Virus record (IMG/VR): IMGVR_UViG_3300027896_005002
Coordinates: 1 to 59,487 of that record
Reading direction: 5' to 3' (one strand)
DNA: 59,487 nucleotides
Source of the DNA: a virus
Shown: piece by piece, positions 1 to 52,818 of the stretch
Numbering within the stretch: the first letter of the stretch is position 1
How the letters are laid out: each line of letters starts with the position of its first letter
Position numbers and translations under genes: made by a program
Notes under the pieces: model-generated
What the model saw: the letters and a program-made list of their open reading frames with translations, nothing else
What the model was told of the DNA's origin: nothing
Databases searched by the model: none

Positions 1-3000
1 CTTATGCCACTATAACCTGACAATCCCGAATATCCTGATGTACCTATACCCGAATAACCTGATTGTCCACTATAACCAGATATGCCCGAATAACCACTTT
101 GACCCGAATATCCTGATGATCCTTGACCAGAATACCCTGATATTCCTGAATAACCAGATGCACCTTCACCTGAATAACCAGATTGTCCTGAATAACCTGA
201 TGTTCCTACACCACTATAACCACTTTGTCCAGAATATCCACTTATACCTGAATAACCACTATGCCCAGAATATCCACTAATTCCTTGAGGTCCTGAAGGT
301 CCTGGAGCTCCACTTAAAGCAACTTCCCAAGTTGAATAAGTTCCTGATCCTGTAGTAAGAGTTATATTTACAACTAATGATCCTGTCCCAAAATCATAAG
401 ATGAAATTGATCCCTCCATCTTATTTGAACTATCATAAGCTATAATAATAGTCTGACCTATTGATAAAGCTAATCCTGCTTCAACAGTTAAATTTTGAAC
501 TCCCGTTCCAATAGTTAATGTAGTAGTTGAAGAAGTAGTATATCTATCACCTTCAAGTCCTGAATAACCTGAAGTACCTAAACCAGAATAACCACTAATA
601 CCTGAATATCCACTCTGTCCTGAATATCCTGAAATACCACTATATCCTGAATTTCCTGAATATCCACTTTGTCCTAATTCTCCTGAATATCCTGATGATC
701 CAGAATCACCTGAATATCCACTCGATCCAGAATACCCTGATGCTCCAGAATATCCACTTATACCTGAATAACCAGATGACCCAGGATTATCGCCACTAAA
801 TCCTGAATATCCACTAACACCCAATCCTGAATAACCACTAATACCTGAATATCCACTAACACCCAATCCTGAATAACCACTATATCCCAAACCTGAATAT
901 CCACTAATACCTGAATAACCGCTATATCCCAAACCTGAATATCCACTAATACCTGAATAACCGGATTGTCCTTGACTTCCTGATACACCTTGTTGTCCTT
1001 GTAAGAATATTATCCACGATGCAAAAGATCCAGATCCACTAATATTACTAACACTAACTGTCATATTTGGATGACTATATGCAGTAATACTACCTTGCAT
1101 ATAATTATTTAAATTTACTGAATAAGAAATGCTAACTCTCTGACCAACAGTAAATGATAAAGAATTTGCTCCATCTAATACAAAACTCTGAGTAAGAAAA
1201 CTTATTGTCATTGAAGTAGTAGATGTTCCATAAAAATTAGAACTTATTCCACTATATCCACTAAGTCCTGAAATTCCAGAATAACCACTTTGTCCTGAAT
1301 AGCCTGAAGATCCAGGATTATCACCACTAAATCCTGAAATTCCACTATACCCTGATGATCCGGGATTATCACCACTAAATCCTGAAACTCCACTATATCC
1401 ACTTTGTCCTGAATATCCTGATGATCCAGGATTATCACCACTAAATCCTGAAACTCCACTATATCCACTAAGACCACTGTATCCCGAATGACCTGACAAA
1501 CCTGAATATCCGCTTCGACCTGAATATCCGCTTCGACCTGAATATCCAGATACTCCTAATTCACCTGAATATCCTGATTGTCCAGAATATCCAGATATTC
1601 CTGAATAGCCTGACATTCCAGAACTACCAATTCCTGAATAGCCTGATTCACCTGAATATCCAGACGCTCCAGAATAACCCGATGTTCCTATTCCAGAATA
1701 TCCTGAAGTACCTACACCAGAATATCCTGAAATTCCGGATTGTCCTTGACTTCCTGATACACCTTGTTGTCCTTGTAAGAATATTATCCACGATGCAAAA
1801 GATCCAGATCCACTAATATTACTAACACTAACTGTCATATTTGGATGACTATATACAGTAATACTACCTTGCATATAATTATTTAAATTTGCTGAATAAG
1901 AAATACTAACTCGTTGTCCGACAGTAAATGATAAAGAATTTGCTCCATCTAATACAAAACTCTGAGTAAGAAGACTTATTGTCATTGAAGTAGTAGATGT
2001 TCCATAAAAATTAGAACTTATTCCACTATATCCGGATGACCCTGAATATCCGCTTTGACCTGAATAGCCTGAAATTCCAATTCCAGAATATCCACTTGCG
2101 CCAATTGTTCCAGAATAACCACTTACACCAACTTCTCCTGAATAACCGCTTACACCAACTTCTCCTGAATATCCTGAAACTCCACTATATCCACTTTGTC
2201 CTGAATAACCTGATGATCCGGGATTATCACCACTAAATCCTGAAACTCCACTATATCCACTTTGTCCTGAATATCCTGATGATCCAGGATTATCACCACT
2301 AAATCCTGAAATTCCACTATACCCTGAAATTCCACTATCACCAGAATATCCGGAAATTCCACTATAACCGGATGTTCCTACTCCAGAATACCCTGATGTT
2401 CCTACTCCAGAATACCCACTTATACCACTATAACCTGACAATCCTGAATATCCACTAATTCCACTATAACCGGATGTTCCAATACCTGAATATCCACTAA
2501 CGCCTATTTCTCCCGAATAACCTGATGTACCTACACCAGAATATCCTGACATTCCAGAATAACCAGACATTCCTGAATATCCACTTATTCCACTATATCC
2601 TGACGATCCAATGCTACCTGAATATCCACTTTCGCCAATTGTTCCTGAATACCCTGAAGTACCTACACCAGAATACCCTGAAGTACCTACACCAGAATAT
2701 CCCGACATTCCACTATATCCTGATCGACCACTATAACCCGATATTCCACTATATCCTGAAACGCCACTATAACCTGATATTCCACTGTATCCTGATGTAC
2801 CGATGCCAGAATACCCACTAATACCTATTTGACCAGAATATCCACTAACACCCGAACCTGAAAAACCAGAATATCCTGATCGACCACTATAACCTGAATA
2901 CCCTTTTTGACCTTCTATTGATACTAACCAATTTGAATATGTACCTGATCCCTGAATTGTATCAACATTAACTGTTAACAATCCAGAACCATTATTATAA

Positions 3001-6998: not shown

Positions 6999-7031
6999 CT
7001 GAATAACCGTCAAAATCAATATGTTTAAGGT

Positions 7032-10894: not shown

Positions 10895-11644
10895 TCATAC
10901 ATTACGAACATTCTCTATTTTATTATAAGTACTTATGCAATTCCTCAATCCATCATCTATTTTAATTTTTGCTTGCCAATTTGGTACTATTACATTTTTA
11001 TTATCATCTGCAAAATCATTTTGCATTTCTATAACATTTTCAATATTTTCAACAAAAGACAATGGCAATTCAAGCATCATTAATATTTTTCTAATAATAT
11101 TATATTCACTTATTTTAATATTAGTCTTTGCTACATATGTAATGCCGCTTTTTCCATGATTTAAAATGCATTCTATCGCGGAACAACAGTCACTAATGTA
11201 TATCCAATCATACATACTTGAACCATCGTTTTTAATCATCACTAATTCTCTACTAACTGCATTAATAATAGATTTTGGAATAAATTTTTGAAGTTGTTGT
11301 CGAGGACCATAACATCGAGCAAGTCTAATAACTATATCAGACTGCACAGGATCATCATTCCATGATAAAACTTGAATAAATCTTTTTACATTACATTTAA
11401 TTTGTTGTGGAATGAAATTAATAACAATATCAATGTCATATAGTTTAAATAAATGCTCTGATTTATTAATATCTATCTTTTCAAATACAACTGTATCTCT
11501 TACTTTATCTAAATTTTTTGTTTCTTCCTTATCAATAACAATGATTCTATCATTATTATATTTAGCATTTAATAATTCAACAAAATGAGACCCGACAAAA
11601 CCCATTCCACCAATTACTAAAATTGTTTTATTGTAATTTCTCAT
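10895..11644 (-). CDS. NAD(P)-dependent epimerase/dehydratase-like protein (short-chain dehydrogenase/reductase fold), apparently truncated
   Basis: Seen in sequence: N-terminal Rossmann motif ILVIGGMGFVGSHFVELL (GxxGxxG). ARCYGPRQQLQKFIPK resembles the (V/N)YGPxQ..EKLIP segment that follows the catalytic YxxxK in dTDP-glucose 4,6-dehydratase and GalE-like enzymes. At 249 aa it is about 60-100 aa shorter than those enzymes, and I could not locate a clear YxxxK. Confidence 0.55.
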   Translation of the reverse strand: MRNYNKTILVIGGMGFVGSHFVELLNAKYNNDRIIVIDKEETKNLDKVRDTVVFEKIDINKSEHLFKLYDIDIVINFIPQQIKCNVKRFIQVLSWNDDPVQSDIVIRLARCYGPRQQLQKFIPKSIINAVSRELVMIKNDGSSMYDWIYISDCCSAIECILNHGKSGITYVAKTNIKISEYNIIRKILMMLELPLSFVENIENVIEMQNDFADDNKNVIVPNWQAKIKIDDGLRNCISTYNKIENVRNV

Positions 11645-12775: not shown

Positions 12776-12783
12776 ATCTACTG

Positions 12784-15352: not shown

Positions 15353-16108
15353 TTATTTATCCGCTTTGCCAACTTCATCTCTTTTATCTTTGAATGTTCC
15401 AGGACCAATATCTATCCATTCTTTATCTCCAGTCTGAGAATCCATATTAGCATCTGGATCATCTTTCTTCTCATTATGCTCGGAAGGATGAGTTGCTTCT
15501 TTTTTCAATAATTCTGCTGTTGCTTGCTGAATCAAACCTTCATCATCATCAGCCAATTCTTCTTCTTCAAGATCACTATCAAGTCCAAGATCATCATCAC
15601 TAACATCACCTTCAGGCGCACCAATTTCTTCACTATAATCTTCATCCTCTTTTTCCATGTCATCAGCCATCTTATTCAAATTAACAGCTGATTTTGTCAA
15701 ATTGGCGGCAGTACGTCTCAAACTGCTTGCAGTAGCAGCAGCTCGACCAATAGCATCTCTTTTATCACTTTGCCAATTATTCTTAGGAGCAACTTCCTCT
15801 TCATGACCTTTACCAATCTGACCAGTTTGACCCTTACCTGCATCATAATCATTCTGGACAGTTGCATCATATCCCGACGACAATTCATCAATATAACTAG
15901 CTTTCCTTGAACCTTTCATTTTTTCCTCCTTACAATTATTTATTTGACTATTATCGGATGCATGAATCTCGTAATCTGTCTTATCTATGGGCTGAAATAT
16001 ATTATCAAAATCACTATTATCAAAATCATGATACTTATCAACTAACCCATTATTATTTATATCATTTATCTCACGATTTGTTAATGTATGCGCTTGTCTT
16101 CTTTTCAT
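15353..16108 (-). CDS. Hypothetical strongly acidic protein (251 aa; DDDLGLDSDLEEEELADDDE)
   Basis: ORF; acidic low-complexity C-terminal half. Confidence 0.45.
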   Translation of the reverse strand: MKRRQAHTLTNREINDINNNGLVDKYHDFDNSDFDNIFQPIDKTDYEIHASDNSQINNCKEEKMKGSRKASYIDELSSGYDATVQNDYDAGKGQTGQIGKGHEEEVAPKNNWQSDKRDAIGRAAATASSLRRTAANLTKSAVNLNKMADDMEKEDEDYSEEIGAPEGDVSDDDLGLDSDLEEEELADDDEGLIQQATAELLKKEATHPSEHNEKKDDPDANMDSQTGDKEWIDIGPGTFKDKRDEVGKADK

Positions 16109-16201: not shown

Positions 16202-19200
16202 TTAAACTGATTTTTTTGCTTCCGCTCTAAAATTTATTAAAGGATGAGGGATTTGCTCTGGCATAATTTGTATATCAGTAAATCCCGCCCACGTTAAATG
16301 ATCCCATAACATTTCCGGATACCACCCCCATAAATGGGGTGAAGTAATATCACCTTGACCGCCCTTATCTGTAGTATTAACTGGACAAAAGAAACAATTC
16401 AATATACCATATCTTGTTTTTTTATCTGCAGTTACAAACATCTTACATAATTCTTCAATATTTGGTACTTCAATTACAAGTTTTCCACCTGGTTTTAATA
16501 TTCGTTTCCAATTGTTAAGAACCTCGACCACCTTGTATGGATTTATATGTTCTAGTAAATGCGATGCCAAAATCTCTTCAACAGAATTTTCTGGTAAATC
16601 TAATTCATAAACATCAGCAATAATCAATGCTCGCATATCATACTTATCAACACTAATATATCCAGGAAATTCCACACCACCAGATCCTAAATTCAATTTT
16701 ATGTGTTTATTGTAACGAAGCATGTTTTTCATACCATTAACTTTAATTACATGCGTACTATATTCAGGAAATTCTTTGACAGAAAAAGTTCCTTCACCAA
16801 TATGATATATTGGAAATCGACCTTCATTTGTAAAAGTAAAAATTAAATCATTATCCGGAACTACGACCTGTTTATATCCTGCAATTTGTGCTTTAACGCA
16901 AAAATCTATATCTTCTCCTCCTCCAGGACTATATGATTCATCAAGTAATCCAATCTTATCAAAAACTTTACTTCGTATCATAACGCAGAAAAATATCATT
17001 ACATCATATCCGGCATAATTATCATACAATTGTAATGGTCCAGTGATTCCCACAGTTTCATCATTCAAAAATGGATGAACTAAAATATCTATCCAGGCAT
17101 TATGCAGCAATCCCTTATCTAAAAGAATAGTATCATTATTTAAAAGAATGATATAATCACCTACTGCAGCTTTTATTCCAATGTTTGTAGCTTTAGTAAA
17201 TCCAAGTCCGTCATCATACCAAATAAGCTTAAAAGGATGACCCAAACTATCAATATAATCTGCAGTATTATCTTTACAACCATTTGCCACAACAATTATT
17301 TCAACATCGTCAAGTTTAGTAAATTTTTTAATACTATCAAGACATGGTTTCAAACAATCTTCTAAATGATTGTATGTCGGAATGACAATTGAATATTTTG
17401 GCTTTTTCTGATGTTTACTATAAAGAATGTTTCTATTATATCTCATAGTTGAGACATTTTTTTGTTTTTTGTCAATTGTTGTCGGACTACTTGGATGATA
17501 TAATGGAAAATCATTCTTTAAACCAATAGGAACAATTGAATAACCGGCTTTTGATATTCTTAAACTAAAATCAGTATCACTTAAATATCCTATTCCAAAA
17601 TTGCAGTCAAATCCATTTATTTGATCCCAAATGTATTTAGGATACATTGCGCAACCACTATGTAATGCTAGCCCTAAAAATGGGTAATCTGCAATAAAAA
17701 TTCCTGTAGCACCTGTTAATTTATCATTTAAAAATGGTTCATATAATTTGCTAATCCATGAATCAACCTCTTGAGGCAATAAAAGAGAATCATCATCAAG
17801 TAATATCAAATAAGATCCTCTAGAAGCAATTGCAGCCGAATTAACAGCAATTGGAACCCCAACTTTTTTATGATGATCTATTAATGTTATCCTTCTTTTT
17901 AAAGATTCTAAATGTGTAATAGCAGCATTATCACAACCATTTGCAGATACAATAACTTCTTTATCAATAAGATTTGTAAATTGAAACACTCTATTTAAAC
18001 AATCAGAAATAACATCATTTGAAGCACATGTCGGAATGATAATACTAAATTTTGGTCGTCTGCGCAATACTATTAAACCATTTGAACCAATTATTTCAAA
18101 ATCCATTTCCCAATTATCATTTGTTTGCAAAAAATCCTGTACAGCAAGTTGTAGTCCTTTTCTATCTAAATTAGTTTGCACTTCATCTTCTTGACCATAT
18201 TTTGTCGTATCATGCAATAAAATATATTTTCTAACTTTATTTGCATGAAGTGTTAATTCTTGTGATAATTGTTTATAAGTGTGTAATGTGTCTATAAATA
18301 ATAAATCAGTTTCTTCTATCTCAGTTGTCAAAACGTCATGCTCAATAAATTTGAAATCAATACCATTTTCTTTAGCAACATCAATAGCTTCATGAATATT
18401 TTCACATGTATAAATGTCATATGACGTCATTTTAATAGGCTTAGCTACAAGAAATGCATATGTAGAAAATACACCACGAACACCAAATTCTGTTATACAT
18501 TCGCATCTACAAGCATATTTTCTCAATGTCGGAAATAATTTGTTAATATCACATTCATGATTCAAAGCAATATTATAAATTTTTTCTAATCTACTTGCAT
18601 ATTTATCTTCTAAAATTTTGTTGTTTCTTTGAATAATTTCATTTTTCATATCTACTTTATTAAACGTTCCATTACCTTCATGATATATCGGAAAACTGTA
18701 ATCTGTCACTCCTTCACCAAATTGTTTTGATCCATCATTAGGAACTTGAACTAATCGATAACCAATTAATTCTGCTCTAAGTGAAAAATCACCATCTTCA
18801 CCCATTCCTGGATTAAAATTTTCATCTAAAAATCCTATTTCATTTACTAATGATCGTTGAAACATACAACACCAAAAAGCAATTGATGTTCGATTTATTC
18901 CTCCACAGTCCCAGATGAATTTTATAGGACCAGTTATCCCTATGTTTGCACATTCAATAAATGGATTTTTTAATATTTCTATCCATCTATTTTTAGGTTG
19001 TTCAAGTAATATAATATCATCATTCAACAAAATAATAAAATCACCCAAAGAATTTTTTAAACCTATATTTACAGCTTTAGTATAACCTATTGGTTGTTCA
19101 AATTGTATAATTTTAGTATTTTGCAAATCGCTTCTGACATTGTCACAACCATTTGCAACAACAATTAGTTCAACATTATCCAAATCGGTGTATTTAACTA

Positions 19201-19261
19201 TACTATCATAACATGATATTAGATTATTAAAATTGCAGGTGGGGATTATAATTGAAATCAT
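16202..19261 (-). CDS. Five-domain carbohydrate-modifying enzyme: GT2 glycosyltransferase, class-I SAM methyltransferase (TylF/CmcI-like), GT2, GT2, class-I SAM methyltransferase
   Basis: Seen in sequence: three GT2 signatures, SIIIPTCNF..LIVVANGCDN..ILLNDDIIL, FSIIIPTCAS..VIVSANGCDN..LILLDDDSLL and YSIVIPTYNH..IIVVANGCKDN..ILLNNDTIL..GGGEDIDF. An internal methyltransferase-like region is CECITEFGVRGVFSTYAFL...LLFIDTLHTY. A C-terminal Methyltransf_11-like domain is LNLGSGGVEFPGYISVDKYD...ILASHLLEHI...LKPGGKLVIEV. Confidence 0.8.
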   Translation of the reverse strand: MISIIIPTCNFNNLISCYDSIVKYTDLDNVELIVVANGCDNVRSDLQNTKIIQFEQPIGYTKAVNIGLKNSLGDFIILLNDDIILLEQPKNRWIEILKNPFIECANIGITGPIKFIWDCGGINRTSIAFWCCMFQRSLVNEIGFLDENFNPGMGEDGDFSLRAELIGYRLVQVPNDGSKQFGEGVTDYSFPIYHEGNGTFNKVDMKNEIIQRNNKILEDKYASRLEKIYNIALNHECDINKLFPTLRKYACRCECITEFGVRGVFSTYAFLVAKPIKMTSYDIYTCENIHEAIDVAKENGIDFKFIEHDVLTTEIEETDLLFIDTLHTYKQLSQELTLHANKVRKYILLHDTTKYGQEDEVQTNLDRKGLQLAVQDFLQTNDNWEMDFEIIGSNGLIVLRRRPKFSIIIPTCASNDVISDCLNRVFQFTNLIDKEVIVSANGCDNAAITHLESLKRRITLIDHHKKVGVPIAVNSAAIASRGSYLILLDDDSLLLPQEVDSWISKLYEPFLNDKLTGATGIFIADYPFLGLALHSGCAMYPKYIWDQINGFDCNFGIGYLSDTDFSLRISKAGYSIVPIGLKNDFPLYHPSSPTTIDKKQKNVSTMRYNRNILYSKHQKKPKYSIVIPTYNHLEDCLKPCLDSIKKFTKLDDVEIIVVANGCKDNTADYIDSLGHPFKLIWYDDGLGFTKATNIGIKAAVGDYIILLNNDTILLDKGLLHNAWIDILVHPFLNDETVGITGPLQLYDNYAGYDVMIFFCVMIRSKVFDKIGLLDESYSPGGGEDIDFCVKAQIAGYKQVVVPDNDLIFTFTNEGRFPIYHIGEGTFSVKEFPEYSTHVIKVNGMKNMLRYNKHIKLNLGSGGVEFPGYISVDKYDMRALIIADVYELDLPENSVEEILASHLLEHINPYKVVEVLNNWKRILKPGGKLVIEVPNIEELCKMFVTADKKTRYGILNCFFCPVNTTDKGGQGDITSPHLWGWYPEMLWDHLTWAGFTDIQIMPEQIPHPLINFRAEAKKSV

Positions 19262-19301: not shown

Positions 19302-19335
19302 AAAAAAAAGAGAGCGGTTAATAACCGCTCTCTTT
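19302..19335 (-). terminator. Strong rho-independent terminator for the minus-strand late transcript (10-bp perfect stem AAGAGAGCGG/CCGCTCTCTT, 7-nt loop, U8 tail)
   Basis: Seen in sequence: plus strand gaaaaaaaaGAGAGCGGttaataaCCGCTCTCttt, about 20 nt downstream of the stop of 19354..20226. Confidence 0.8.
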
Positions 19336-19353: not shown

Positions 19354-20226
19354 TTATCTTGTAACCAAAATCTGAGATACACCTCTTGGGTTCCAAATAC
19401 CAATCCCAATTTGTTCGAAGATACTCCAGCCGATCAGGCGGCTGTCAGGATCATCAGCTGGAAGAACAGTGATGTCGATACGTTGAGGCATAATTCCTAA
19501 GAATTTTTCCTCTGTGCATACATAAACTGTTCCAATAGGTACGATACGTGATACAATGATTTCAGCACCCCAAAGCATTGCCATAAGACCAGTAGCCAGC
19601 AAGCTTTTCTGAGTGACTGGATCGAGTTGATCACGACCCCATTTTCTGATGTCACTATAGTCACGAGCATTCATGAACATGCGAGCAACTCGCAAGTCAT
19701 GTTTTTCAACTTCTGCCATAGCATCAGCGAGAGAGTCACGATCGAGAGAACCAGCAGCGTTCGTTACAGCATTGAAAGCAACGCCAGTTGTCGGATCGAT
19801 CTGCGTTAGAGCAACATCAAAGGCAGCAAATCCAAGTTCATCTTCAGCAGCCTGAATTTCCTGTTTTGCTTTGTCCTGAGCACGGTCAATCAGATTATAA
19901 CGTCTTTCCTTTACCTGTGTGAATGGAATCTTGGGATTTGAACCAAGTTCGAACAACGGTATAAGAATACGTTTTCCTTTAACGATCGTTTCTGGTGTTT
20001 GACCTTCTTCAGAGATTACGATAGCCGGAACATTGATGTCCTTATCGTAATAAGGAAGTGCGCCTTGAGGAAGAGGATCAACTACGATTGCTCTACGAAA
20101 AACGCCTTCGTAGTCAAGTCTTTCACGCAGAGGGTTTTGCATCGAAGCAGCAAGTTTCATTTTACCTTCTGCTGTTGAAAGGAGCTTATTAATAACAGCT
20201 TCTTTTTGTGCAGGATTGAGTTTCAT
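19354..20226 (-). CDS. Putative major capsid protein (HK97-fold size class, 290 aa)
   Basis: Inference from position: it is the last gene of the terminase-portal-scaffold block. It has a strong AAGGAGA Shine-Dalgarno, GC content markedly higher than its surroundings, and the strong terminator follows immediately. I did not verify a capsid-fold motif. Confidence 0.5.
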   Translation of the reverse strand: MKLNPAQKEAVINKLLSTAEGKMKLAASMQNPLRERLDYEGVFRRAIVVDPLPQGALPYYDKDINVPAIVISEEGQTPETIVKGKRILIPLFELGSNPKIPFTQVKERRYNLIDRAQDKAKQEIQAAEDELGFAAFDVALTQIDPTTGVAFNAVTNAAGSLDRDSLADAMAEVEKHDLRVARMFMNARDYSDIRKWGRDQLDPVTQKSLLATGLMAMLWGAEIIVSRIVPIGTVYVCTEEKFLGIMPQRIDITVLPADDPDSRLIGWSIFEQIGIGIWNPRGVSQILVTR

Positions 20227-22895: not shown

Positions 22896-24581
22896 CTACC
22901 ACATTGTAGCATCAACGTCAATATTTATATTGTCATCTTTTATAGATGCTTGAAATTTAAATAAAGTATTGTTAAGTTTCGTATTTATACAAAAAGATTT
23001 ATCATATTTTCTGCTTGCTTGTTTGGGCTTAATACACATAATATCATGTTGCACATTATCAATATGATTTTCATATTTATCTAAAAGTTGTGCTTGCTTT
23101 TCATTCCAATTAGCTGATTTAAATTGATAATATCGTCCATTCCACTTTCCAGAAAAAGCAACTAATTTATTTACACTAGCCCACTTAATTTTACCTTCAG
23201 TAAACATAGATTTTGGCAATTTTTCTTTTGTTCCTAATTTACTTCCTTCAATCCATCTAACTTCAATACCATCATCATCCTTTTTTAACACTTGGAATTT
23301 ATCATCTGTATCAACAATAGTGCCTTGACGTTCAATAGATATATCATCATCAGTATATTTTTTTGCACATTTTTTCAATTGATCTTTATAATCCTGAATT
23401 GAAAACTTAGATATATTTTCGACTGGAATATTTTTAATCATGCCAACTCTTGGAAAATAAATAGCACAAGTATCAGCAACTTTTGCAATTAATCTACCTA
23501 CAGTTTTTTCTGATAAAAAATTAAATAAATCAGAAGCTTTCCTATCACTTGATGGAATATCATATCTACTATTTAATATTACTAATGATCCATAATCTTC
23601 GCATTTTGCAGTTTTCTTTTTCCCTTTTCCAGCATCAATTACAGATTCTTCTTGTTGTTCATCAAATTTCTCTAATACATTATGAGGATCAGTATAAGGA
23701 ATATCTGCATGAACATCTTCCGGTATGTAATCAACATTTTGTTCTTTTTCCGATGGATGCATAGCAGCAATTTTTGCAACTTCATTTTGAAAATCCATAG
23801 AATTTATACTCCTACATAAAATATTAGACAATAATTGCATTGAAACCTTATCTGATGCTACTAATTTTCTAAAAACAGCACCTGCAAAAGCAGGATTTGC
23901 AACAATTGAACAATCATAAAATGTATTTTTATAACATAATTCGCATGCTTTTCTATATTTACCATCAGCACACTTATATACCTGATTCTTATTTTTAATA
24001 TGTATGCAATATTCTTTTTCATCGTGTGCTACATTACCACATATAGAACATACAGTATATTTTGTCGTACATCCCATTGAAACTGCATTTGCCAAACCTG
24101 TTTCAATATTATGTACTAAATCTTCATGTCTTTTGTCAACGCAAAATAGTAGATCAATTAATACAGTATCTCCCATATCACGCGGTACAGCGTCTAAAAC
24201 TTTTCCTTTTGCGCGTTCAGGGTTTTGATCATGTTCAACATATACTGTACCATTAGTTATAAATGTCTGATAATCATTTAATAATTCATCTTTAGTCCAC
24301 GCATCACCATTTGTATTAATATATTTTTCAGTATCTTTTGTAATGTAATAATCTGAATTTGGCTCAAGATTAACAGAAGCCATGATTGTAGTATGTATAT
24401 ATATATAATTATCAGGATCAATTTGACATACTACTCTTTGATCATCAGTCGGTTCTAAATTTTTATGTATAACAATACCTTCAGCTGTCGACACTTTATT
24501 TTTTACATCGGTCCACTCTGATGCAGACTTAATGAAATTATTCGACACTATTGAAAAAATGGCACCGTGTTTAATAAACAT
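22896..24581 (-). CDS. Hypothetical head-morphogenesis-region protein with a Cys-rich putative zinc-binding centre (561 aa)
   Basis: Seen in sequence: CTTKYTVCSICGNVAHDEKEYCIHIKNKNQVYKCADGKYRKACELCYKNTFYDC. It is encoded between the portal and the scaffold, where a prohead protease or minor head protein would sit by synteny, but I saw no protease motif. Confidence 0.4.
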   Translation of the reverse strand: MFIKHGAIFSIVSNNFIKSASEWTDVKNKVSTAEGIVIHKNLEPTDDQRVVCQIDPDNYIYIHTTIMASVNLEPNSDYYITKDTEKYINTNGDAWTKDELLNDYQTFITNGTVYVEHDQNPERAKGKVLDAVPRDMGDTVLIDLLFCVDKRHEDLVHNIETGLANAVSMGCTTKYTVCSICGNVAHDEKEYCIHIKNKNQVYKCADGKYRKACELCYKNTFYDCSIVANPAFAGAVFRKLVASDKVSMQLLSNILCRSINSMDFQNEVAKIAAMHPSEKEQNVDYIPEDVHADIPYTDPHNVLEKFDEQQEESVIDAGKGKKKTAKCEDYGSLVILNSRYDIPSSDRKASDLFNFLSEKTVGRLIAKVADTCAIYFPRVGMIKNIPVENISKFSIQDYKDQLKKCAKKYTDDDISIERQGTIVDTDDKFQVLKKDDDGIEVRWIEGSKLGTKEKLPKSMFTEGKIKWASVNKLVAFSGKWNGRYYQFKSANWNEKQAQLLDKYENHIDNVQHDIMCIKPKQASRKYDKSFCINTKLNNTLFKFQASIKDDNINIDVDATMW

Positions 24582-24629: not shown

Positions 24630-25037
24630 TCAATCAACTGTAAAATTTTCAATTAAATCTTTTAAGGAAGTATATACATGTTTGCATATTAGATATTTGC
24701 CTGTAGGATCACGTACGACTGGTCGGCTCAAATCAGAAAATGTTCTTTCACTATATCCTTGATCAACAGCATTAAAATCAGGACCATTCCATTTCCAAAA
24801 CCTGCATGAACAACTAGCCAAAACATGTCTATTTTTTATTTTTCTTAACATGGATGGTTTAGTTAATTGTTGTGGCATATTAATTATAGTTATTCTAACA
24901 ACTTTTCCATTGACTTTATAAACCCAACGATTTCCACTGTGACGCACAAGTATTGGCTCATGCTCAGTCGCACGATTAATTATTTCAACAGGAGTATTTG
25001 ATAGTAAATAAGAAATTGTTACAGATTCTTTTTTCAT
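24630..25037 (-). CDS. Small SWIM-like zinc-finger protein (135 aa)
   Basis: Seen in sequence: the CxC...CxH arrangement SCSCRFWKWNG...LICKHV. It overlaps the portal gene end by 4 nt. Confidence 0.35.
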   Translation of the reverse strand: MKKESVTISYLLSNTPVEIINRATEHEPILVRHSGNRWVYKVNGKVVRITIINMPQQLTKPSMLRKIKNRHVLASCSCRFWKWNGPDFNAVDQGYSERTFSDLSRPVVRDPTGKYLICKHVYTSLKDLIENFTVD

Positions 25038-27610
25038 ATTGTCAATGACCTAATATCTGTTATAATGGCATCTATTGTATCTCTAAATGCTTTTCTAATA
25101 TTAGATTCATTTCTCTGAAATACTTCAATAGACTTGCTTACAACATTTTTTGGATCTAATTTTTGTGCAACTTTTCTATTTGCTGTCGACATTAATTCAA
25201 TTTTCTGAATTAATGTCTGTGCTTTTTTAGCAATATCATCACTAAATGTTCCTTTAACACTTTGTGTTGCACTAAAAATTGAATCGGTAGGACAAACTAA
25301 ACAGTGATACACTGAAGCATAAATTTGTTTCACTCTTTTTTCTATATTTTCATTTAATAAAGAATTCGCAACTTTGTTAGTTAATCCATAATAAGCTGTA
25401 GTAATTTCATTTTCAGCTGCACTCATTAATTTTCTGGAATGTTCATCAATACCAATTTTCATTAATTGTTTTGATCTATCAGATAATTCTGTTGATACTT
25501 TTTTCTGATTATCAACCAATTCTTTTACTTTTTGAGGTGATTGAAACGGCATATTATCATAACCAACAGAAATTTCCGATACCGGTTTTAAATCAACCTT
25601 TATCTCATCCTCTTTTTCTTCACTAATTGCTTGTTTTAATCTACTATCATCAAATTGTCTATCTAACATATTATCTGCAATAAACATTTTTGGTACTTTT
25701 TTATTCTGCAAATCTTTCCGCGGTGGTTTTAATTTCTTTCCAGTATCTTTTACTTCATATTTTTCTTTAGATTCCTCAACTTTTTTATTTGAATGATTTA
25801 ACTGTCGATTATGGCGACGTTGTTCTCTACTTTCAGCAGTTTTTATTTGTTCAGGTAACTGTTGATCTGGTGTTTTTGCCTGTTTTGGTACTTCATATTC
25901 AACGATTTCAATTTTTGGTTTTATTATTAATGATCCATCATCACCATAATCAATATCAAAATTCTTTGCAAATTTAGTAATAGGAACTTTACTAGACCCA
26001 AACATTCCAAAACCACCACCACCTTGATCTTCAAGTTCAATACCATAAGCGTCTGCATAAACTTTTGCAACACCAGGCCCTAAAGATCGACCAACTTCCA
26101 TCATTATTGACCGTCTTAATTCATTATACGTTGGATCTAAAACTGTATCTTCATTTGCTTTTAATCTTTCAGCAATTGATTCTTGATTTAATCCCATATG
26201 TTCTAACCACGTTCCAACATCAACTTTGCCTTCAGTTACTGCTTGTGCAAGCATTTGTTTATGTTGAGTATCATCTGTTAGATTTAATTTGTTCCATCTA
26301 ACCTTGGGATATAATAAAACTTCTTTAGGATCATTTTTAGAAGTTCCAGGAGCATATTCAATAAAATCATTATTTCTAGCTATTGGTATAAATAAATTTC
26401 GTTCAATAAATGATTCTAATACTTCTCTAAATATTGCATACCTTTGATTCAAAACTTCAAGTACAGTTTGTCCACCTGCAAATCTACCTTCACCAAGTAA
26501 AACATTTTTATTAATCATTAAACCAACTAATAAATCTTCAGTCACCCATTCTCGTTCTGTCGCTAATTGCATTAGTCCACTACTAGTTCCAACAAGTTCC
26601 CAATGTAACTCATAATTAGTAATAATTGCAGAGTCTGGATTCAACATTGCATCTTCAACTTGTTCTCTAATTTCATTTACATCTGCTCTACTAGCATAAT
26701 CTGCCCAAATTAAATGCTTTGGCGTCAAATGTCTTGTAGCAATGGCATCTTGTGACTGTCTTAATCTATCCTTATAAACTAATGTTTTGAAATTTCTCTC
26801 AATAATTGATGTTCCCCAATCAATATAATCTGCTAATTTTCTTGCCAAATGTGAAACATGAGATCCTTCACTAGGATCTGTTGACAATGGTATTTCTTTA
26901 CCAACATTTACTTTTTCAATGACATCTTCTGATAATGTTCTATATAAAGCACCTGTTTTTTCATCACTTTCTCCAGCATGTACAATATGTCTTAATTTAT
27001 CATCAGGTACCAAACTAACAGTCATTGAATTTGTCAATCCCAATTTTTCAAGATGAATATAATCAGGATTTAAACATGTTAATCTATCCCATTTTGAACC
27101 TGAAGGATTCATTTGTGCCCATGGAAATACATTACCTACTTTATAATACTCAACACCAAACATTAATAATTTGTTAAATAAGTCAATCCCAGTATTGCCA
27201 ATCATATCAACATAATGTTCTAATACTCTATTAGCTTTCTTTTTATTAACTGATGTTGGAAGATCTAATCTAATTTTAGATAATGGTAGTTCTGAATGCA
27301 TATCAACAGCAGTTGACACTAATGCATCATATTTATAAAAATAGTTGCACCAGCTATTGATTTCAATCCTATCCTTTGGAAGCATCAATGATGATGGTTC
27401 AAAATCAGGATGATAGAATGTAGGTATTGATTGTCTTATATCTGCAGCGGCAGTTTTAGCAAAATGATTTACAATTTTTATTGCCTTATTATTGTGTTTT
27501 CTAACAGGTCCTCTATATATTTCTGACTGCAATGATGGCTGAGGCTCTTTAATTGCACTATTCTTAATAGCTGCAGATTTAACAAATTTTATTTTTGGTA
27601 TTTTTGTCAT
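25034..27610 (-). CDS. Putative portal protein (about 858 aa)
   Basis: Inference from size and position, separated from the large terminase by two small acidic ORFs. The ATG at 27610 is preceded by an AGGAAGG Shine-Dalgarno; the ORF track extends to a GTG at 27619. I did not verify a portal motif. Confidence 0.5.
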   Translation of the reverse strand: MTKIPKIKFVKSAAIKNSAIKEPQPSLQSEIYRGPVRKHNNKAIKIVNHFAKTAAADIRQSIPTFYHPDFEPSSLMLPKDRIEINSWCNYFYKYDALVSTAVDMHSELPLSKIRLDLPTSVNKKKANRVLEHYVDMIGNTGIDLFNKLLMFGVEYYKVGNVFPWAQMNPSGSKWDRLTCLNPDYIHLEKLGLTNSMTVSLVPDDKLRHIVHAGESDEKTGALYRTLSEDVIEKVNVGKEIPLSTDPSEGSHVSHLARKLADYIDWGTSIIERNFKTLVYKDRLRQSQDAIATRHLTPKHLIWADYASRADVNEIREQVEDAMLNPDSAIITNYELHWELVGTSSGLMQLATEREWVTEDLLVGLMINKNVLLGEGRFAGGQTVLEVLNQRYAIFREVLESFIERNLFIPIARNNDFIEYAPGTSKNDPKEVLLYPKVRWNKLNLTDDTQHKQMLAQAVTEGKVDVGTWLEHMGLNQESIAERLKANEDTVLDPTYNELRRSIMMEVGRSLGPGVAKVYADAYGIELEDQGGGGFGMFGSSKVPITKFAKNFDIDYGDDGSLIIKPKIEIVEYEVPKQAKTPDQQLPEQIKTAESREQRRHNRQLNHSNKKVEESKEKYEVKDTGKKLKPPRKDLQNKKVPKMFIADNMLDRQFDDSRLKQAISEEKEDEIKVDLKPVSEISVGYDNMPFQSPQKVKELVDNQKKVSTELSDRSKQLMKIGIDEHSRKLMSAAENEITTAYYGLTNKVANSLLNENIEKRVKQIYASVYHCLVCPTDSIFSATQSVKGTFSDDIAKKAQTLIQKIELMSTANRKVAQKLDPKNVVSKSIEVFQRNESNIRKAFRDTIDAIITDIRSLTI

Positions 27611-27645
27611 TATGAACACCTTCCTGAACTATAGTATTTCATAAA

Positions 27646-35240: not shown

Positions 35241-35512
35241 GTTTGTACCTTTATCACTTTTAGCGGCAATTTTGAATCATCAGGCCATTCCATTTGATAA
35301 CCACAAAACTTCCACCAATTATCACCAAGTTTGCGAATATGGTCCTTCCATTTTTTACTTCGTTCATATTCACGTTCAAACTGCCAACTTGGATTATTCA
35401 AAAAAATTGGAGATGGTGGATTCAATTTTTTCCATGTTTCATACTCATTTTTACAAAACATTATCCATTCTTGTTCTAATTCAAAACTAATATCATCTGA
35501 ATTTTCATTCAT
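35237..35512 (-). CDS. Hypothetical Trp-rich protein (91 aa)
   Basis: ORF with 4-nt overlaps on both sides. Confidence 0.4.
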   Translation of the reverse strand: MNENSDDISFELEQEWIMFCKNEYETWKKLNPPSPIFLNNPSWQFEREYERSKKWKDHIRKLGDNWWKFCGYQMEWPDDSKLPLKVIKVQT

Positions 35513-35733: not shown

Positions 35734-35745
35734 AAATTATCCTTT

Positions 35746-51594: not shown

Positions 51595-52818
51595 TTAAAC
51601 AGAAACAGTTTTTCTACTTTTATTTGATATCTCAATATTTTTCTTTAAAGAATCTTTAATATTTTCATTATCACTATTTCTATATTTTATCCTTAAATTA
51701 TCATCATGATCAATATGAATTAATGAAGTGAAAGCAAATGAATGTTCATACAATCCAATATCAATAAACTTATGAAAAATATCTTCATCTTCATATCCAT
51801 ATCCATTCATCGACTCATTGAACCCATTTACCCTTTTAAAATTTGATAATTCAACAAAAAATGTACCTAACGTATGTCTATCATTAGGCAACCCTCCTCT
51901 AAAAAAACAATTTTTTACTTCAAAAATATTTAAATTACTTGCAATTTTTACATCTGAATCTATAAACATTACATACTTTGTAGTAACAAATTTAGCTCCA
52001 AAATTTCTTGATTTAGATCCATGAAATTCTTTTTGTCCATCTACTCGTATAATTTTTACCAATTTATTGAGCTCTTCAATTTCTTGCAAATTTATATCAC
52101 TAGACCAATCAACGACAATAATATTAGTAAAACCATAATTTAACCATGATTTATAACTCTGTAACAGGAAACTTTCTCGATTCATGCACACAGTAACTAA
52201 AGTAACATCATCATTATTAAAATTAAAATTAATTTTTGGATAATTAGATAAAAATTCATGACCTTCAAATTTAACTAAAATTTTATTATTATCTTGTCTA
52301 GTAAAACAAATATCTTGATTTGAAATTTGCTGCCATAATCCTGCAATATTATTTAATGTTAAACCAATAGCAAGATGTTTAAAATATCCTTCAGGTATTA
52401 TTTGAAATCTATGCTTATACTTAGCTAATAAACTAGACATGTGTCGTTTATCAAAAACAGAAAAATTATTTATAATTTCATACACTAATTCACGATCATT
52501 ATGACTTATATACATAACACATTCATAAGGACCTTTAAATAAATAGGATAACTCAGGATTAAAATCAAACCATTTAGTAATAATTATGTCAGAATCCATC
52601 CATATAGAATCAGGATTATCCCTCAAATATTGTAGTCGAAATAAAGAACTAGCAAATCGAATGTCTGAAAATTTAGACAAATCAAAATTTTGTGGAAACT
52701 TAGTAATTAATTTATATTGAACATTCTGTGGTTTATCATTTTTAATTTTATCCATGAAAAATTTGTAACATTCTGGAATTTTATCACTATTGAAAAACTG
52801 TACAATCTTCATGTTCAT
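51595..52818 (-). CDS. Two-domain glycosyltransferase (N-terminal DXD sugar-binding GT32-like domain; C-terminal GT2/GT7-like domain)
   Basis: Seen in sequence: ASSLFRLQYLRDNPDSIWMDSDIII matches the Gly_transf_sug pattern (R.L.yL...GG/ds.yiDtD). C-terminal VTLVTVCMNRES...NIIVVDWSSD...VMFIDSDV...GYGYEDEDIFHK is GT2/beta-4-GalT-like. Confidence 0.6.
   Translation of the reverse strand: MNMKIVQFFNSDKIPECYKFFMDKIKNDKPQNVQYKLITKFPQNFDLSKFSDIRFASSLFRLQYLRDNPDSIWMDSDIIITKWFDFNPELSYLFKGPYECVMYISHNDRELVYEIINNFSVFDKRHMSSLLAKYKHRFQIIPEGYFKHLAIGLTLNNIAGLWQQISNQDICFTRQDNNKILVKFEGHEFLSNYPKINFNFNNDDVTLVTVCMNRESFLLQSYKSWLNYGFTNIIVVDWSSDINLQEIEELNKLVKIIRVDGQKEFHGSKSRNFGAKFVTTKYVMFIDSDVKIASNLNIFEVKNCFFRGGLPNDRHTLGTFFVELSNFKRVNGFNESMNGYGYEDEDIFHKFIDIGLYEHSFAFTSLIHIDHDDNLRIKYRNSDNENIKDSLKKNIEISNKSRKTVSV

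What the first reader, a model, noticed from the sequence alone, without database searches (positions are those of the whole stretch)
16202..19261. Five-domain GT2-MT-GT2-GT2-MT enzyme in the structural region: likely phage-autonomous synthesis of a methylated oligosaccharide
One 1019-aa polypeptide concatenates three family-2 glycosyltransferase domains and two SAM-dependent methyltransferase domains. In that respect it resembles the multidomain glycosyl/methyltransferases that chloroviruses use to build capsid glycans.

Two other sugar-active genes are in the window: a second two-domain glycosyltransferase inside the fibre-gene cluster (51595..52818) and an epimerase/dehydratase-like gene (10895..11644). 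The window also encodes enormous Ser/Tyr-rich collagen-like GYSG repeat proteins (1..5843 and 52833..54128), which would be ideal O-glycosylation targets.

This suggests that virion fibres are glycosylated by phage-encoded machinery. That is rare and poorly characterised in phages. The enzymes could instead remodel host surface polysaccharide.
Basis: partly seen in the sequence, partly recalled or inferred. Interest (0 to 1): 0.8.

Follow-up and report, generated by a model that had tools for sequence, protein, structure and literature searches.

The report
Five-module sugar-and-methyl transferase in jumbo phage
A roughly 416-kb phage carries one gene that fuses three sugar-adding and two methyl-adding enzymes, probably to build a small methylated sugar chain on its own collagen-like fibres, but the gene is optional cargo dropped behind the capsid gene and is not part of the capsid machinery.

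Summary

The protein is soluble, with no membrane segment. It belongs to a large metagenomic family of modular GT/MT fusions found in huge phages.

Its position beside the capsid gene means little. In 19 relatives with a syntenic head module (15 with MCP 81-94% identical, 4 with 40-54%), the slot behind the conserved MCP terminator is empty or holds other cargo, mostly homing-endonuclease-like ORFs, and never a GT/MT.

Elsewhere, homologues sit in glycan-synthesis islands that flank collagen-like GYSG fibre genes far more often than control loci do (9/20 against 1/63 and 0/17). Some islands also carry prolyl-hydroxylase-like genes. This supports glycosylation of fibre proteins but does not prove it. 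Remodelling of host surface glycan remains a live rival.

The "epimerase" is an internally deleted RmlB-like protein that is probably inactive, so the window gives no evidence for autonomous sugar supply. I rate the finding as a new variant of a known kind, of moderate interest.

The parts
16202..19261 (-). Whole gene: 1019-aa GT2-MT-GT2-GT2-MT fusion protein (P0001)
   Evidence: ORF; Pfam; AF2 model with mean pLDDT 85.2 and five folded domains; no TM segment, max KD19 1.45; 401 homologues
18596..19261 (-). GT2 domain a (aa 1-222): IIPT start; invariant D82 in the NDD metal site; invariant E155-D156 (EDGD)
   Evidence: PF00535 E 3.5e-10; invariant residues in 31 homologues; 47% identical to domain c
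18056..18595 (-). Middle methyltransferase domain (aa 223-402): class-I SAM MT fold of the cation-dependent O-MT type; invariant E258-x-G260, D282, D324, H327, H350 (D351 nearly invariant)
17408..18055 (-). GT2 domain b (aa 403-618): invariant D489 and D491 (DDD), invariant D562 and D564 (SDTD in place of EDxD)
   Evidence: PF00535 E 6.8e-12; conservation
16727..17407 (-). GT2 domain c (aa 619-845): invariant N708 and D710 (NND), invariant E783-D784
   Evidence: PF00535 E 5.5e-20; conservation
16202..16726 (-). C-terminal SAM methyltransferase domain (aa 846-1019): LNLGSGG motif I (G859, G862), LKPGG 922-926
   Evidence: PF08241 E 3e-8, above cutoff; PDB profile hit 1ve3 E 1e-6; conservation
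19307..19335 (-). Terminator-like hairpin (13-bp stem plus T-run) between the MCP stop and the GT/MT start; conserved in relatives that lack the GT/MT
   Evidence: alignment with L006-L008
19354..20226 (-). Major capsid protein, upstream neighbour (context only)
   Evidence: phrog_2522 E 1e-68; 48% identical to phage G major head protein
15353..16108 (-). Acidic 251-aa protein, downstream neighbour; in relatives it directly follows the MCP or the variable slot
   Evidence: Synteny in L006-L022
51595..52818 (-). Second glycosyltransferase (407 aa; GT2/Glyco_transf_7C in aa ~207-371), 15 bp from a GYSG fibre-like gene
   Evidence: near-orphan, 11 homologues; N-terminal half unassigned
52833..54128 (-). 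431-aa protein with a GYSG/collagen tract: candidate acceptor
   Evidence: PF01391; sequence
1..5843 (-). Giant collagen-like GYSG repeat protein (at least 1947 aa, runs off the window start): candidate acceptor
   Evidence: 162 GYSG units, S 26% G 26% Y 10.5%
10895..11644 (-). RmlB-like (dTDP-glucose 4,6-dehydratase-like) protein with an internal deletion; probably not an active nucleotide-sugar enzyme
   Evidence: 6bi4 E 2e-20, with query 82-103 replacing chain ~110-196; TIGR01181 98 bits against cutoff 365

Best explanation
The gene encodes a soluble cytoplasmic 'assembly line'. It has three inverting-type GT-A/GT2 glycosyltransferase modules and two SAM-dependent O-methyltransferase modules, one of the cation-dependent COMT/TylF type and one of the Methyltransf_11 type.

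The modules together would add up to three sugars from nucleotide-sugar donors to one acceptor and methylate up to two hydroxyls, giving a short methyl-capped oligosaccharide. The donors are probably supplied by the host or encoded elsewhere in the roughly 416-kb genome.

The most likely acceptor is a phage protein made in the same cytoplasm. The best candidates are the Ser/Tyr-rich collagen-like GYSG fibre proteins, with the separate 407-aa GT beside a GYSG gene as a possible partner or initiator.

The gene is accessory cargo inserted just downstream of the MCP terminator, in a slot that in relatives holds other cargo, mostly homing-endonuclease-like ORFs, or nothing. It is not a conserved head gene.

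Shown: domain identities, motif conservation, solubility, the variable slot, and the genomic association with GYSG/collagen fibre genes. Inferred: catalytic activity, number and kind of sugars, methylation of sugar rather than protein, and the identity of the acceptor.
For: - Five domains with conserved catalytic or cofactor residues in 31 homologues of 48-63% identity.
- Confident AF2 models.
- No hydrophobic segment.
- Fold neighbours are tandem GT-A enzymes (K4CP, PmHS2, RmlT, LH3, GalNAc-T2) and viral multidomain GT/MT proteins.
- Homologues lie in islands with RmlD/epimerase, GT2/GT9/GT4, FkbM MT, sulfo- and carbamoyl-transferase genes. No initiating phosphoglycosyltransferase, flippase, polymerase, O-antigen ABC exporter or oligosaccharyltransferase family is named in the precomputed Pfam annotation of six annotated loci.
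- GYSG-type collagen-like ORFs lie within 10 kb (median 2.3 kb) of multidomain GT/MT genes in 9/20 non-redundant loci, against 1/63 (Fisher p = 4e-6) and 0/17 (p = 0.0015).
- Such ORFs end in the S74 tail-fibre chaperone motif.
- P4H-like 2OG oxygenases, which are protein-modifying enzymes, lie between collagen-like genes and GT genes in L004 and next to a collagen-like gene in L032.
- In the window the second GT lies 15 bp from a GYSG gene.
- Bacterial relatives in two MAGs sit next to an eCIS tail-like particle module with an NHL protein.
- Precedents: chlorovirus A064R, a GT-GT-MT (PMC9614988), and glycosylated mycobacteriophage capsid and tail-tube proteins (Freeman 2023, as cited in PMC11256854 and PMC12619734).
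Against: - There is no direct evidence for any glycan or acceptor.
- The GYSG association is confounded by lineage. GYSG genes may simply be dense in these genomes (2 in this 59-kb window), and fibre genes and GT islands may both gather in hypervariable regions.
- In this window the five-domain gene is 10.3 kb from the nearest GYSG gene and stands alone, with none of the island partners.
- 11 of 20 multidomain loci show no collagen-like gene within 10 kb.
- The terminator upstream leaves its expression timing unknown.
- GT2 enzymes of this type most often act on lipid-linked or polysaccharide acceptors in bacteria.
- No recognisable protein-O-glycosylation initiator was identified.
Confidence: 0.45

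Rival explanations
1. Host-surface remodelling. The enzyme extends and methyl-caps a lipid-linked or wall-linked host polysaccharide (O-antigen, capsule, teichoic acid or S-layer glycan) during infection. It would use host initiation and export machinery. The effect would be to block superinfection by competing phages or to prevent progeny re-adsorbing to lysed cells.
For: - The closest solved and named relatives of the GT2 domains are polysaccharide or lipid-linked-glycan enzymes: K4CP, PmHS2, RmlT, TarP-like 6h1j, PglI and EpsD/PgaC-type NCBIfam hits, all weak.
- Multidomain GT plus a terminating methyltransferase is the logic of ABC-transporter-dependent O-antigen synthesis (WbdA/WbdD; my own knowledge).
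- Published interpretation of GTs in pelagimyophage fibre clusters as O-chain modifiers (PMC7029224).
- The gene behaves as a variable 'moron' behind a terminator.
- Islands with sulfo-, carbamoyl- and heptose-related genes resemble surface-glycan clusters.
Against: - No initiating phosphoglycosyltransferase, flippase, polymerase, ABC exporter, ligase or Gtr-type membrane protein is named in the precomputed Pfam annotation of six phage loci.
- No membrane anchor.
- The association with collagen-like fibre genes and P4H-like protein hydroxylases is not explained by this model.
- Bacterial relatives next to eCIS, with no polysaccharide-export genes among the ORFs scanned there.
Confidence: 0.3
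2. Capsid glycosylation. The enzyme decorates the major capsid or decoration protein encoded just upstream, as in mycobacteriophage Che8 or chlorovirus Vp54, forming a glycan shield on the head.
For: - It is the immediate downstream neighbour of the MCP, with a decoration-like gene upstream.
- Precedents: glycosylated mycobacteriophage capsid (as cited in PMC11256854, PMC12619734) and chlorovirus (PMC9614988).
Against: - None of 19 relatives with a syntenic head module (15 with MCP 81-94% identical, 4 with 40-54%) has a GT/MT in this slot; it is empty in L007 and L008.
- The window MCP has the same length and C-terminus as those of relatives lacking the gene, with no Ser/Thr-rich extension.
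- A conserved terminator separates the two genes.
- Homologues elsewhere have no MCP within 10 kb.
Confidence: 0.1
3. Non-protein, non-envelope target. The enzyme glycosylates phage DNA (hypermodified bases) or a small-molecule or peptide product, comparable to the mycofactocin oligosaccharide made by MftF and methylated by MftM.
For: - Phage GT-A enzymes can build glycans on 5hmC (bioRxiv 10.1101/2023.12.21.572611).
- Weak NCBIfam resemblance to MftF and MftM, far below cutoffs.
- A radical-SAM/SPASM gene is present in the window.
Against: - No C5-MT, TET-like 5mYOX or ThyS-like hydroxymethylase, which mark DNA-glycan clusters, is annotated in six loci or in the window ORFs scanned.
- The radical-SAM gene is 23 kb away.
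- The NCBIfam scores are about 10% of the cutoffs.
Confidence: 0.05

Closest known systems
Chlorovirus PBCV-1 A064R (638 aa; rhamnosyltransferase - rhamnosyltransferase - 2-O-methyltransferase), which builds the methylated terminus of the capsid N-glycan
   Same: A virus-encoded, soluble, single polypeptide that joins several glycosyltransferase modules to a class-I SAM methyltransferase (PMC9614988). A 638-aa chlorovirus-type entry appears among the BFVD fold hits (M1IF74, E 9e-14).
   Different: A064R has three modules, not five. Its D1 is a retaining GT-A likened to family 34, and D2 is a separate new GT family. Here all three GT modules are GT2 (PF00535) and there are two methyltransferases of different subtypes. 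The host is bacterial, the acceptor is unknown, and no specific sequence homology was shown.
Mycobacteriophage virion glycosylation (Che8, Rita and others; Freeman et al. 2023)
   Same: Phage-encoded glycosyltransferases modify the phage's own virion proteins in the bacterial cytoplasm (as summarised in PMC11256854 and PMC12619734).
   Different: Those are separate single-domain GT genes near the genome's right end that act on C-terminal tails of capsid and tail-tube subunits. Here there is one five-domain fusion, no matching extension on the MCP, and a genomic link to collagen-like fibres instead. The primary paper could not be read.
Giant-virus fibril and collagen glycosylation machinery (Mimivirus and Megavirus GT clusters; collagen hydroxylase-glycosyltransferase L230; human LH3)
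   Same: Collagen-like proteins, P4H/LH-type 2OG oxygenases and multidomain GTs are encoded together. Multidomain GT/MT proteins of Bandra megavirus, Catovirus, Moumouvirus and Pithovirus are the best non-phage fold matches. LH3 is a PDB fold hit.
   Different: The window itself has no P4H-like gene; these occur in related islands L004 and L032. The repeat is GYS rather than a Pro/Lys-rich Gly-X-Y. The roles of L230 and mimivirus are from my own knowledge and PMC9614988, and were not tested here.
Bacterial multidomain glycan enzymes with a methyl cap (WsaE of Geobacillus S-layer glycan: MT plus two rhamnosyltransferase domains; WbdA/WbdD of E. coli O8/O9a) and tandem GT-A polymerases (K4CP, PmHS2)
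   Same: GT2-type modules fused in tandem, with methylation of the terminal sugar. K4CP and PmHS2 are the top PDB fold hits.
   Different: Those act on lipid-linked chains and depend on export machinery that is absent from the phage loci examined. WsaE and WbdD are recalled from memory and were not compared here. Identity to K4CP is only about 16%.
GTs in the hypervariable host-recognition (tail-fibre) cluster of pelagimyophages
   Same: Glycosyltransferases embedded among tail-fibre genes of large aquatic myophages (PMC7029224).
   Different: Those are mostly single-domain GT8-type genes, read by the authors as host O-chain modifiers. No multidomain GT2/MT fusions or GYSG collagen link were described there.

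Membership tests
CAZy GT2 / Pfam PF00535 (GT-A fold, inverting) | Significant match to the GT2 profile for each of the three proposed domains | tested here: met
   E 3.5e-10, 6.8e-12 and 5.5e-20, all above the gathering score, with each segment scanned alone
CAZy GT2 / Pfam PF00535 (GT-A fold, inverting) | Metal/nucleotide-binding DXD-type motif and downstream acidic (E/D)D catalytic motif conserved | tested here: met
   D82 and E155-D156; D489, D491 and D562, D564; N708, D710 and E783-D784. All are invariant in 31 homologues. Domain b has SDTD instead of EDxD.
CAZy GT2 / Pfam PF00535 (GT-A fold, inverting) | GT-A Rossmann-like fold | tested here: met
   AF2 pLDDT 85; Foldseek hits to K4CP (E 5e-21), 6p61 (TMt 0.74) and WrtF
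CAZy GT2 / Pfam PF00535 (GT-A fold, inverting) | Glycosyl transfer with inversion; donor specificity | not testable with these tools
   Needs enzymology
Class-I SAM-dependent methyltransferase (C-terminal domain, Methyltransf_11) | Profile match above cutoff and glycine-rich motif I | tested here: met
   PF08241 34.6 bits against 21.2; LNLGSGG with G859 and G862 invariant; LKPGG invariant
Cation-dependent O-methyltransferase family 3 / CmcI-TylF-like (middle domain) | Sequence-profile membership (PF04989 / PF13578 / PF01596) | tested here: not met
   PF04989 20.3 bits against cutoff 23.2; PF13578 17.7 against 26.3; no PDB sequence hit; no NCBIfam hit
Cation-dependent O-methyltransferase family 3 / CmcI-TylF-like (middle domain) | Class-I MT fold closest to family-3 O-MTs | tested here: met
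Cation-dependent O-methyltransferase family 3 / CmcI-TylF-like (middle domain) | SAM-binding acidic and glycine motifs and a metal-binding acidic cluster | tested here: inconclusive
   E258-x-G260, D282, D324 and H350-D351 are conserved, but their equivalence to the COMT metal ligands was not checked by superposition
A064R-like viral capsid-glycan GT-GT-MT enzymes | Homology of the domains to A064R D1 (retaining GT-A), D2 (novel GT) and D3 (MT) | not tested
The GT domains here are GT2, so homology to D1 and D2 is unlikely.
A064R-like viral capsid-glycan GT-GT-MT enzymes | Acts on the major capsid protein | tested here: not met
   The gene is absent from the MCP-adjacent slot in 19/19 relatives, and no MCP feature co-varies with it. 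This is indirect evidence.
Serotype-converting phage Gtr systems (GtrA/GtrB/GtrV) | Membrane-embedded flippase, bactoprenol glucosyltransferase and a polytopic serotype-specific GT | tested here: not met
   No TM segment. The phrog_841 GtrB-like hit covers only the generic GT2 N-terminus. No GtrA or GtrV is annotated nearby.
Phage DNA glycan-hypermodification clusters | GT adjacent to C5-MT plus 5mYOX/TET, or to a ThyS-like hydroxymethylase | tested here: not met
   None are annotated within 10 kb in six loci or in the scanned window ORFs. The rest of the 416-kb genome was not seen.

The most novel reading that the evidence does not exclude
A widespread but undescribed post-translational system in huge phages. 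Modular, rapidly reshuffled GT/MT 'assembly-line' fusions, with partner sulfo-, carbamoyl-, heptosyl-transferases and prolyl-hydroxylase-like enzymes, would decorate collagen-like GYSG tail or head fibres with variable methylated glycans in the bacterial cytoplasm. This would be a phage counterpart of giant-virus fibril glycosylation. It may be shared with bacterial eCIS particles and would serve as a diversifiable coat for host recognition or shielding.
Probability: 0.3. Interest if true: 0.8.

Novelty: new variant of a known kind. Interest (0 to 1): 0.55.

Why it matters
Protein glycosylation of bacteriophage particles has so far been shown experimentally only in mycobacteriophages. GTs in large environmental phages are routinely written off as DNA-modifying or O-antigen-modifying genes.

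This family could change that. It has at least 401 protein clusters and at least 577 IMG/VR loci that contain at least one of its modules. If it glycosylates collagen-like fibres, then huge phages, like giant viruses, carry their own glycan-coat machinery. That would bear on host range, immune or grazer recognition, particle stability and the annotation of thousands of metagenomic genes.

The modular domain shuffling also offers a natural toolbox of soluble GT-MT cascades for glyco-engineering. If the target turns out to be the host envelope, the family would be a large new class of superinfection-exclusion genes. Either way, co-expression with a GYSG fragment makes the question directly testable.

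Tried and rejected
1. Capsid-linked function. I fetched 19 MCP-anchored loci and mapped synteny. The GT/MT is absent from all of them, so I rejected the position as evidence.
2. Close relatives in GenBank phages. There are only two weak partial hits. Phage G, the nearest cultured relative (MCP 48% identical), has no GT after its MCP.
3. Donor or linkage specificity from sequence. Hits in Pfam, PHROGs, NCBIfam, PDB profiles and Foldseek are all generic GT2/GT-A, and NCBIfam scores are about 10% of the cutoffs. No donor sugar can be assigned, and 'rhamnosyltransferase' is only a weak hint (TIGR01556, 25-31 bits against 200).
4. Sequence-level proof that the middle domain is a methyltransferase failed. 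It was settled only by fold.
5. Reverse anchoring on the 431-aa GYSG protein and the 407-aa GT in IMG/VR found no relatives. A large protein search showed the 407-aa GT is almost an orphan, so its adjacency to a GYSG gene could not be tested for conservation.
6. I could not tell whether MCP-relatives' long contigs carry a GT/MT elsewhere.
7. Pfam on the N-terminal half of the 407-aa GT gave nothing at E<=1.
8. The primary mycobacteriophage glycosylation paper is not held.
9. Sigma-70 promoter matches in the region are not enriched over shuffles (37 against 30.3 +/- 5.3), so no promoter is claimed.


Full report
**1. The observation**

The ORF listing gives one ATG-initiated ORF of 1019 aa at 16202..19261 on the minus strand. 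The identical protein (P0001) was assembled independently on three contigs, the longest about 416 kb. The window is therefore the start of a jumbo-phage contig.

Pfam finds three separate Glycos_transf_2 stretches and a C-terminal Methyltransf_11 domain. Scanned separately, the segments give:
- aa 1-221: PF00535, E 3.5e-10
- aa 403-618: PF00535, E 6.8e-12
- aa 619-845: PF00535, E 5.5e-20
- aa ~846-1019: PF08241, E 3e-8, above cutoff

**2. Is it a working enzyme?**

An alignment of 31 homologues with the same architecture (48-63% identical to the window protein) keeps these residues invariant:
- GT2a: D82 (NDD) and E155-D156.
- GT2b: D489 and D491 (DDD), and D562 and D564 (SDTD in place of EDxD).
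- GT2c: N708 and D710 (NND), and E783-D784.
- Middle MT: E258-x-G260, D282, D324, H327 and H350 (D351 is nearly invariant).
- C-terminal MT: G859, G862 and LKPGG 922-926.

The whole-protein AlphaFold model has mean pLDDT 85.2, with five separately folded alpha/beta domains joined by short linkers. No 19-residue window reaches a membrane-like hydrophobicity (maximum 1.45), so it is a soluble cytoplasmic protein. GT2a and GT2c are 47% identical to each other, and GT2b is 36% identical to GT2a, which points to internal duplication.

**3. What family is it?**

The large protein search returns 401 clusters at E<1e-5, of 700-1750 aa. They have variable numbers and orders of GT2, Methyltransf_11/25/23 and FkbM (Methyltransf_21) domains. 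Many are on contigs of 100-340 kb.

Domain mapping of the fetched loci shows many architectures, for example:
- GT2c-GT2a-MT-GT2b-GT2c-MT
- GT2a-MT-GT2b-GT2b-GT2c-MT
- GT2a-GT2c-GT2c-GT2c-MT

This is a modular, shuffled family.

Foldseek against the PDB gives only generic tandem or single GT-A enzymes: K4CP chondroitin polymerase (E 5e-21), PmHS2, RmlT, WrtF, LH3, LARGE1 and GalNAc-T2. Against viral models, the best hits are multidomain GT or GT/MT proteins of uncultured Caudovirales and of giant viruses (Bandra megavirus, Catovirus, Moumouvirus, and Pithovirus 'methyltransferase' and 'cephalosporin hydroxylase'). A 638-aa chlorovirus-type entry also appears.

No donor sugar can be assigned. 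NCBIfam matches (rhamnosyltransferase, MftF, PglI, EpsD, MftM) are all at about a tenth of their cutoffs.

**4. The genomic position is misleading**

The neighbours, all on the minus strand, run in this order:
- TerL-like gene
- portal (25034..27619)
- protease (22896..24581)
- an acidic scaffold-like protein
- a 172-aa protein placed like phage G's 'capsid decoration' gp26
- MCP (19354..20226; phrog_2522, E 1e-68)
- the GT/MT gene
- an acidic 251-aa protein and small ORFs

The lineage is distantly related to Bacillus phage G (MCP 48%, portal 32%) and to an uncultured 485-kb phage.

I fetched 19 IMG/VR loci anchored on MCP homologues (15 at 81-94% identity, 4 at 40-54%). In the closer relatives the whole head module is syntenic, but the slot between the MCP and the acidic protein varies. 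It is 114 bp in L008 (a 330-kb contig) and 430 bp in L007. In the other close relatives it holds 2-3.3 kb of other cargo, mostly homing-endonuclease-like ORFs. In L024 the MCP gene itself is interrupted by such an ORF. None of the 19 loci has a GT/MT there.

A 13-bp-stem hairpin followed by a T-run sits between the MCP stop and the GT/MT start (19335..19307). It is conserved at the same place in relatives that lack the gene. The GT/MT is therefore cargo inserted behind the capsid terminator.

The MCP has the same length and C-terminus as in relatives without the gene, so nothing in the capsid protein co-varies with the enzyme. Loci anchored on GT/MT homologues have no MCP within 10 kb. Phage G has no GT after its MCP.

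**5. Where homologues live**

Six loci with precomputed annotation show the fusion inside glycan-synthesis islands.
- **L003:** followed by GT17, GT2_5+FkbM, FkbM+GT2 and GT2 genes.
- **L004:** a collagen-like fibre ORF ending in a Peptidase_S74 chaperone, then two P4H-type 2OG oxygenases, an MT, DUF8361+GT2, GT2+MT, the 1405-aa fusion, a GT2 and a GT9-like gene.
- **L032:** a 2OG oxygenase next to a collagen-like gene, then further downstream, after unrelated genes, epimerase and RmlD-like genes directly ahead of the fusion. After the fusion come GT2, GT9-like, GT4, two sulfotransferases, an FkbM MT, a carbamoyltransferase and an HldE-like pair.
- **L033:** Laminin_G_3 and Peptidase_S74 ORFs, then the fusion, an FkbM MT, two GT2 genes and a GT9-like gene.
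- **L034:** directly after a TerL-like gene.

None of these lists names a phosphoglycosyltransferase, flippase, polymerase, O-antigen ABC exporter, ligase or oligosaccharyltransferase family.

**6. The collagen link**

I scanned every fetched locus for ORFs with at least 4 G[YFW]SG units or a Gly-X-Y run of at least 12. The raw counts of loci with a collagen-like ORF were:
- multidomain GT/MT loci: 14/25
- loci with only a free-standing MT or one GT: 1/63 (the single positive, L051, is a GT2-MT fusion)
- MCP-anchored loci: 4/19, none of GYSG type

After removing duplicates, 9 of 20 multidomain loci have a GYSG-type ORF. The Fisher tests give p = 4e-6 against the 1/63 set and p = 0.0015 against 0/17 non-redundant MCP loci. 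The median gap to the GT/MT gene is 2.3 kb.

The GYSG/GWSG proteins in L041 and L049, and the non-GYSG collagen-like ORF in L004, end in the intramolecular-chaperone signature YSD(E/A)RLK of tail fibres.

In the window itself:
- The giant frame 1..5843(-) has 162 GYSG units.
- The 431-aa GYSG/collagen protein (52833..54128) lies 15 bp from the second GT (51595..52818).
- The five-domain gene is 10.3 kb from the nearest GYSG gene.

Caveat: lineage and 'hypervariable region' effects could produce this pattern without any functional link. The controls are not phylogenetically matched.

**7. Cellular relatives**

The genome scan finds mostly free-standing homologues of the middle MT in many phyla, plus a few multidomain matches of at most 42% identity.

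On two long Eremiobacterota contigs, the relative follows an AAA ATPase and an eCIS_core protein, which belong to a phage-tail-like injection particle. It is accompanied by a 1171-aa GT2-GT9-GT4-MT fusion, a GT9 gene and an NHL-repeat protein. In a Desulfobacterales chromosome it sits with GT4 and sulfotransferase genes. Among the ORFs scanned, neither locus shows an O-antigen/capsule-type polysaccharide export module (L113 has only a weak ABC_tran hit and an ECF riboflavin-transporter component).

**8. Sugar supply**

The 'epimerase' (10895..11644) is closest to dTDP-glucose 4,6-dehydratase (6bi4, E 2e-20; TIGR01181 98 bits against cutoff 365). In the alignment its residues 82-103 replace roughly residues 110-196 of the enzyme. 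From my knowledge of RmlB, that stretch carries the Thr/Asp-Glu and YxxxK catalytic residues; I did not map them. No YxxxK is visible in the sequence.

The short form is conserved in L008, so it may have some other role. The window gives no evidence of autonomous nucleotide-sugar synthesis. The remaining roughly 357 kb of the genome were not seen.

**9. Mechanism**

Shown:
- Five catalytic-type modules, soluble, and conserved.
- An accessory gene placed in a hotspot.
- Family members embedded in tailoring-rich glycan islands that lie beside collagen-like fibre genes and protein hydroxylase-like genes.

Inferred:
- The three GT2 modules add up to three sugars in turn to one acceptor.
- The two MT modules O-methylate sugars. 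The fold relatives SpnH and MeT1 do this, as does A064R-D3 (PMC9614988).
- The acceptor is a virion fibre protein glycosylated in the cytoplasm before or during assembly.

I put about 0.45 on this full statement. I put about 0.3 on remodelling of a host envelope glycan, which is the published reading for GTs in pelagimyophage fibre clusters (PMC7029224). I put about 0.1 on capsid glycosylation and about 0.05 on DNA or small-molecule targets. For the last, no C5-MT, TET or ThyS-type genes are near any homologue, and these are the markers named in bioRxiv 10.1101/2023.12.21.572611.

**10. Comparison and novelty**

Several related things are already known:
- Viral GT-GT-MT fusions (A064R).
- Giant-virus multidomain GTs with collagen and hydroxylase partners.
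- Glycosylated mycobacteriophage virions.
- GTs inside tail-fibre clusters.

In five full-text searches on related terms I found no description of this five-module GT2/MT family in huge phages, of its modular shuffling, or of its association with GYSG collagen-like fibres and eCIS loci. I therefore rate it a new variant of a known kind, and not categorically new.

Interest is moderate at 0.55. The enzyme itself is unsurprising to a glycobiologist. The possible phage-fibre glycosylation system is testable and would be notable if true.

Noticed in passing
L006-L024, slot after the MCP (e.g. L006 11020-12090; L012 11007-13112; L022 10974-13174); L024 6445-8544: The position just downstream of the MCP terminator is an insertion hotspot for homing-endonuclease-like ORFs (repeated CxxC...H modules, NUMOD-like motifs, PD-(D/E)xK-like or HNH ends). 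In L024 the MCP gene itself is split by a 329-aa endonuclease-like ORF, which suggests an intron or a similar mobile insertion.
   Followed up: partly
window 10895-11644 (-): This RmlB-like (dTDP-glucose 4,6-dehydratase-like) protein lacks about 65 residues that should include the catalytic core. It keeps the GxxGxxG NAD motif and the C-terminal substrate domain. The short form is conserved in relative L008, next to DnaJ. It may be a pseudo-enzyme or a nucleotide-sugar binder.
   Followed up: partly
L136 2-12558 and L137 12-11369 (Eremiobacterota MAG contigs): Bacterial relatives of the GT/MT lie directly after an eCIS (contractile injection system) AAA ATPase and eCIS_core protein. With them are a 1171-aa GT2-GT9-GT4-MT fusion, a GT9 gene and an NHL-repeat protein. 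This hints that tail-like particles may also be glycosylated.
   Followed up: partly
L032 8142-23873: A huge-phage glycan island with epimerase and RmlD-like genes, a GT9-like gene, GT4, two sulfotransferases, an FkbM methyltransferase, a carbamoyltransferase and a cytidylyltransferase-like plus PfkB pair (HldE-like, ADP-heptose type). This is an unusually rich sugar-tailoring set for a phage.
   Followed up: no
L004 1944-5453; L032 30-1570: Prolyl-4-hydroxylase-type 2OG-Fe(II) oxygenase genes sit next to collagen-like genes. In L004 the collagen-like ORF ends in a Peptidase_S74 chaperone. This suggests hydroxylation of phage collagen-like fibres.
   Followed up: partly
window 42188-43258 (-), beside 43844-51437: A radical-SAM/SPASM enzyme is encoded immediately beside a run of NHL-repeat and PKD/Fn3 fibre-like genes. 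It may be another protein-modifying enzyme.
   Followed up: no
window 56589-58499 (-): This 636-aa ORF contains an intein splicing domain with an HNH endonuclease (PF14890 E 2e-21; HNH_3). The host protein was not identified.
   Followed up: no
window 11789-12787, 33201-40491, 41383-42006 (-): The phage encodes a full three-domain DnaJ, a type IA topoisomerase, both gyrase subunits and a uracil-DNA glycosylase-family protein. These are typical of the autonomy of huge phages.
   Followed up: no
L052-L110 (IMG/VR) and L111-L179 (genomes), matches to aa ~220-402: Free-standing homologues of the middle methyltransferase domain, about 180 aa and 30-52% identical, are very common in viral contigs and in MAGs of many phyla. 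The domain falls below Pfam's cutoffs, so it may deserve a family of its own.
   Followed up: partly
L004 14220-15646; L032 13870-15308; L033 12421-14500: A conserved pair follows the multidomain fusion in three unrelated contigs: a ~320-aa weak-GT2 protein and a ~150-aa GT9-like protein. This suggests a fixed partner module that is missing from the window.
   Followed up: no
window 6258-7019 (-): A GIY-YIG/NUMOD3 homing endonuclease lies beside the giant GYSG gene. It is another mobile element in the window.
   Followed up: no
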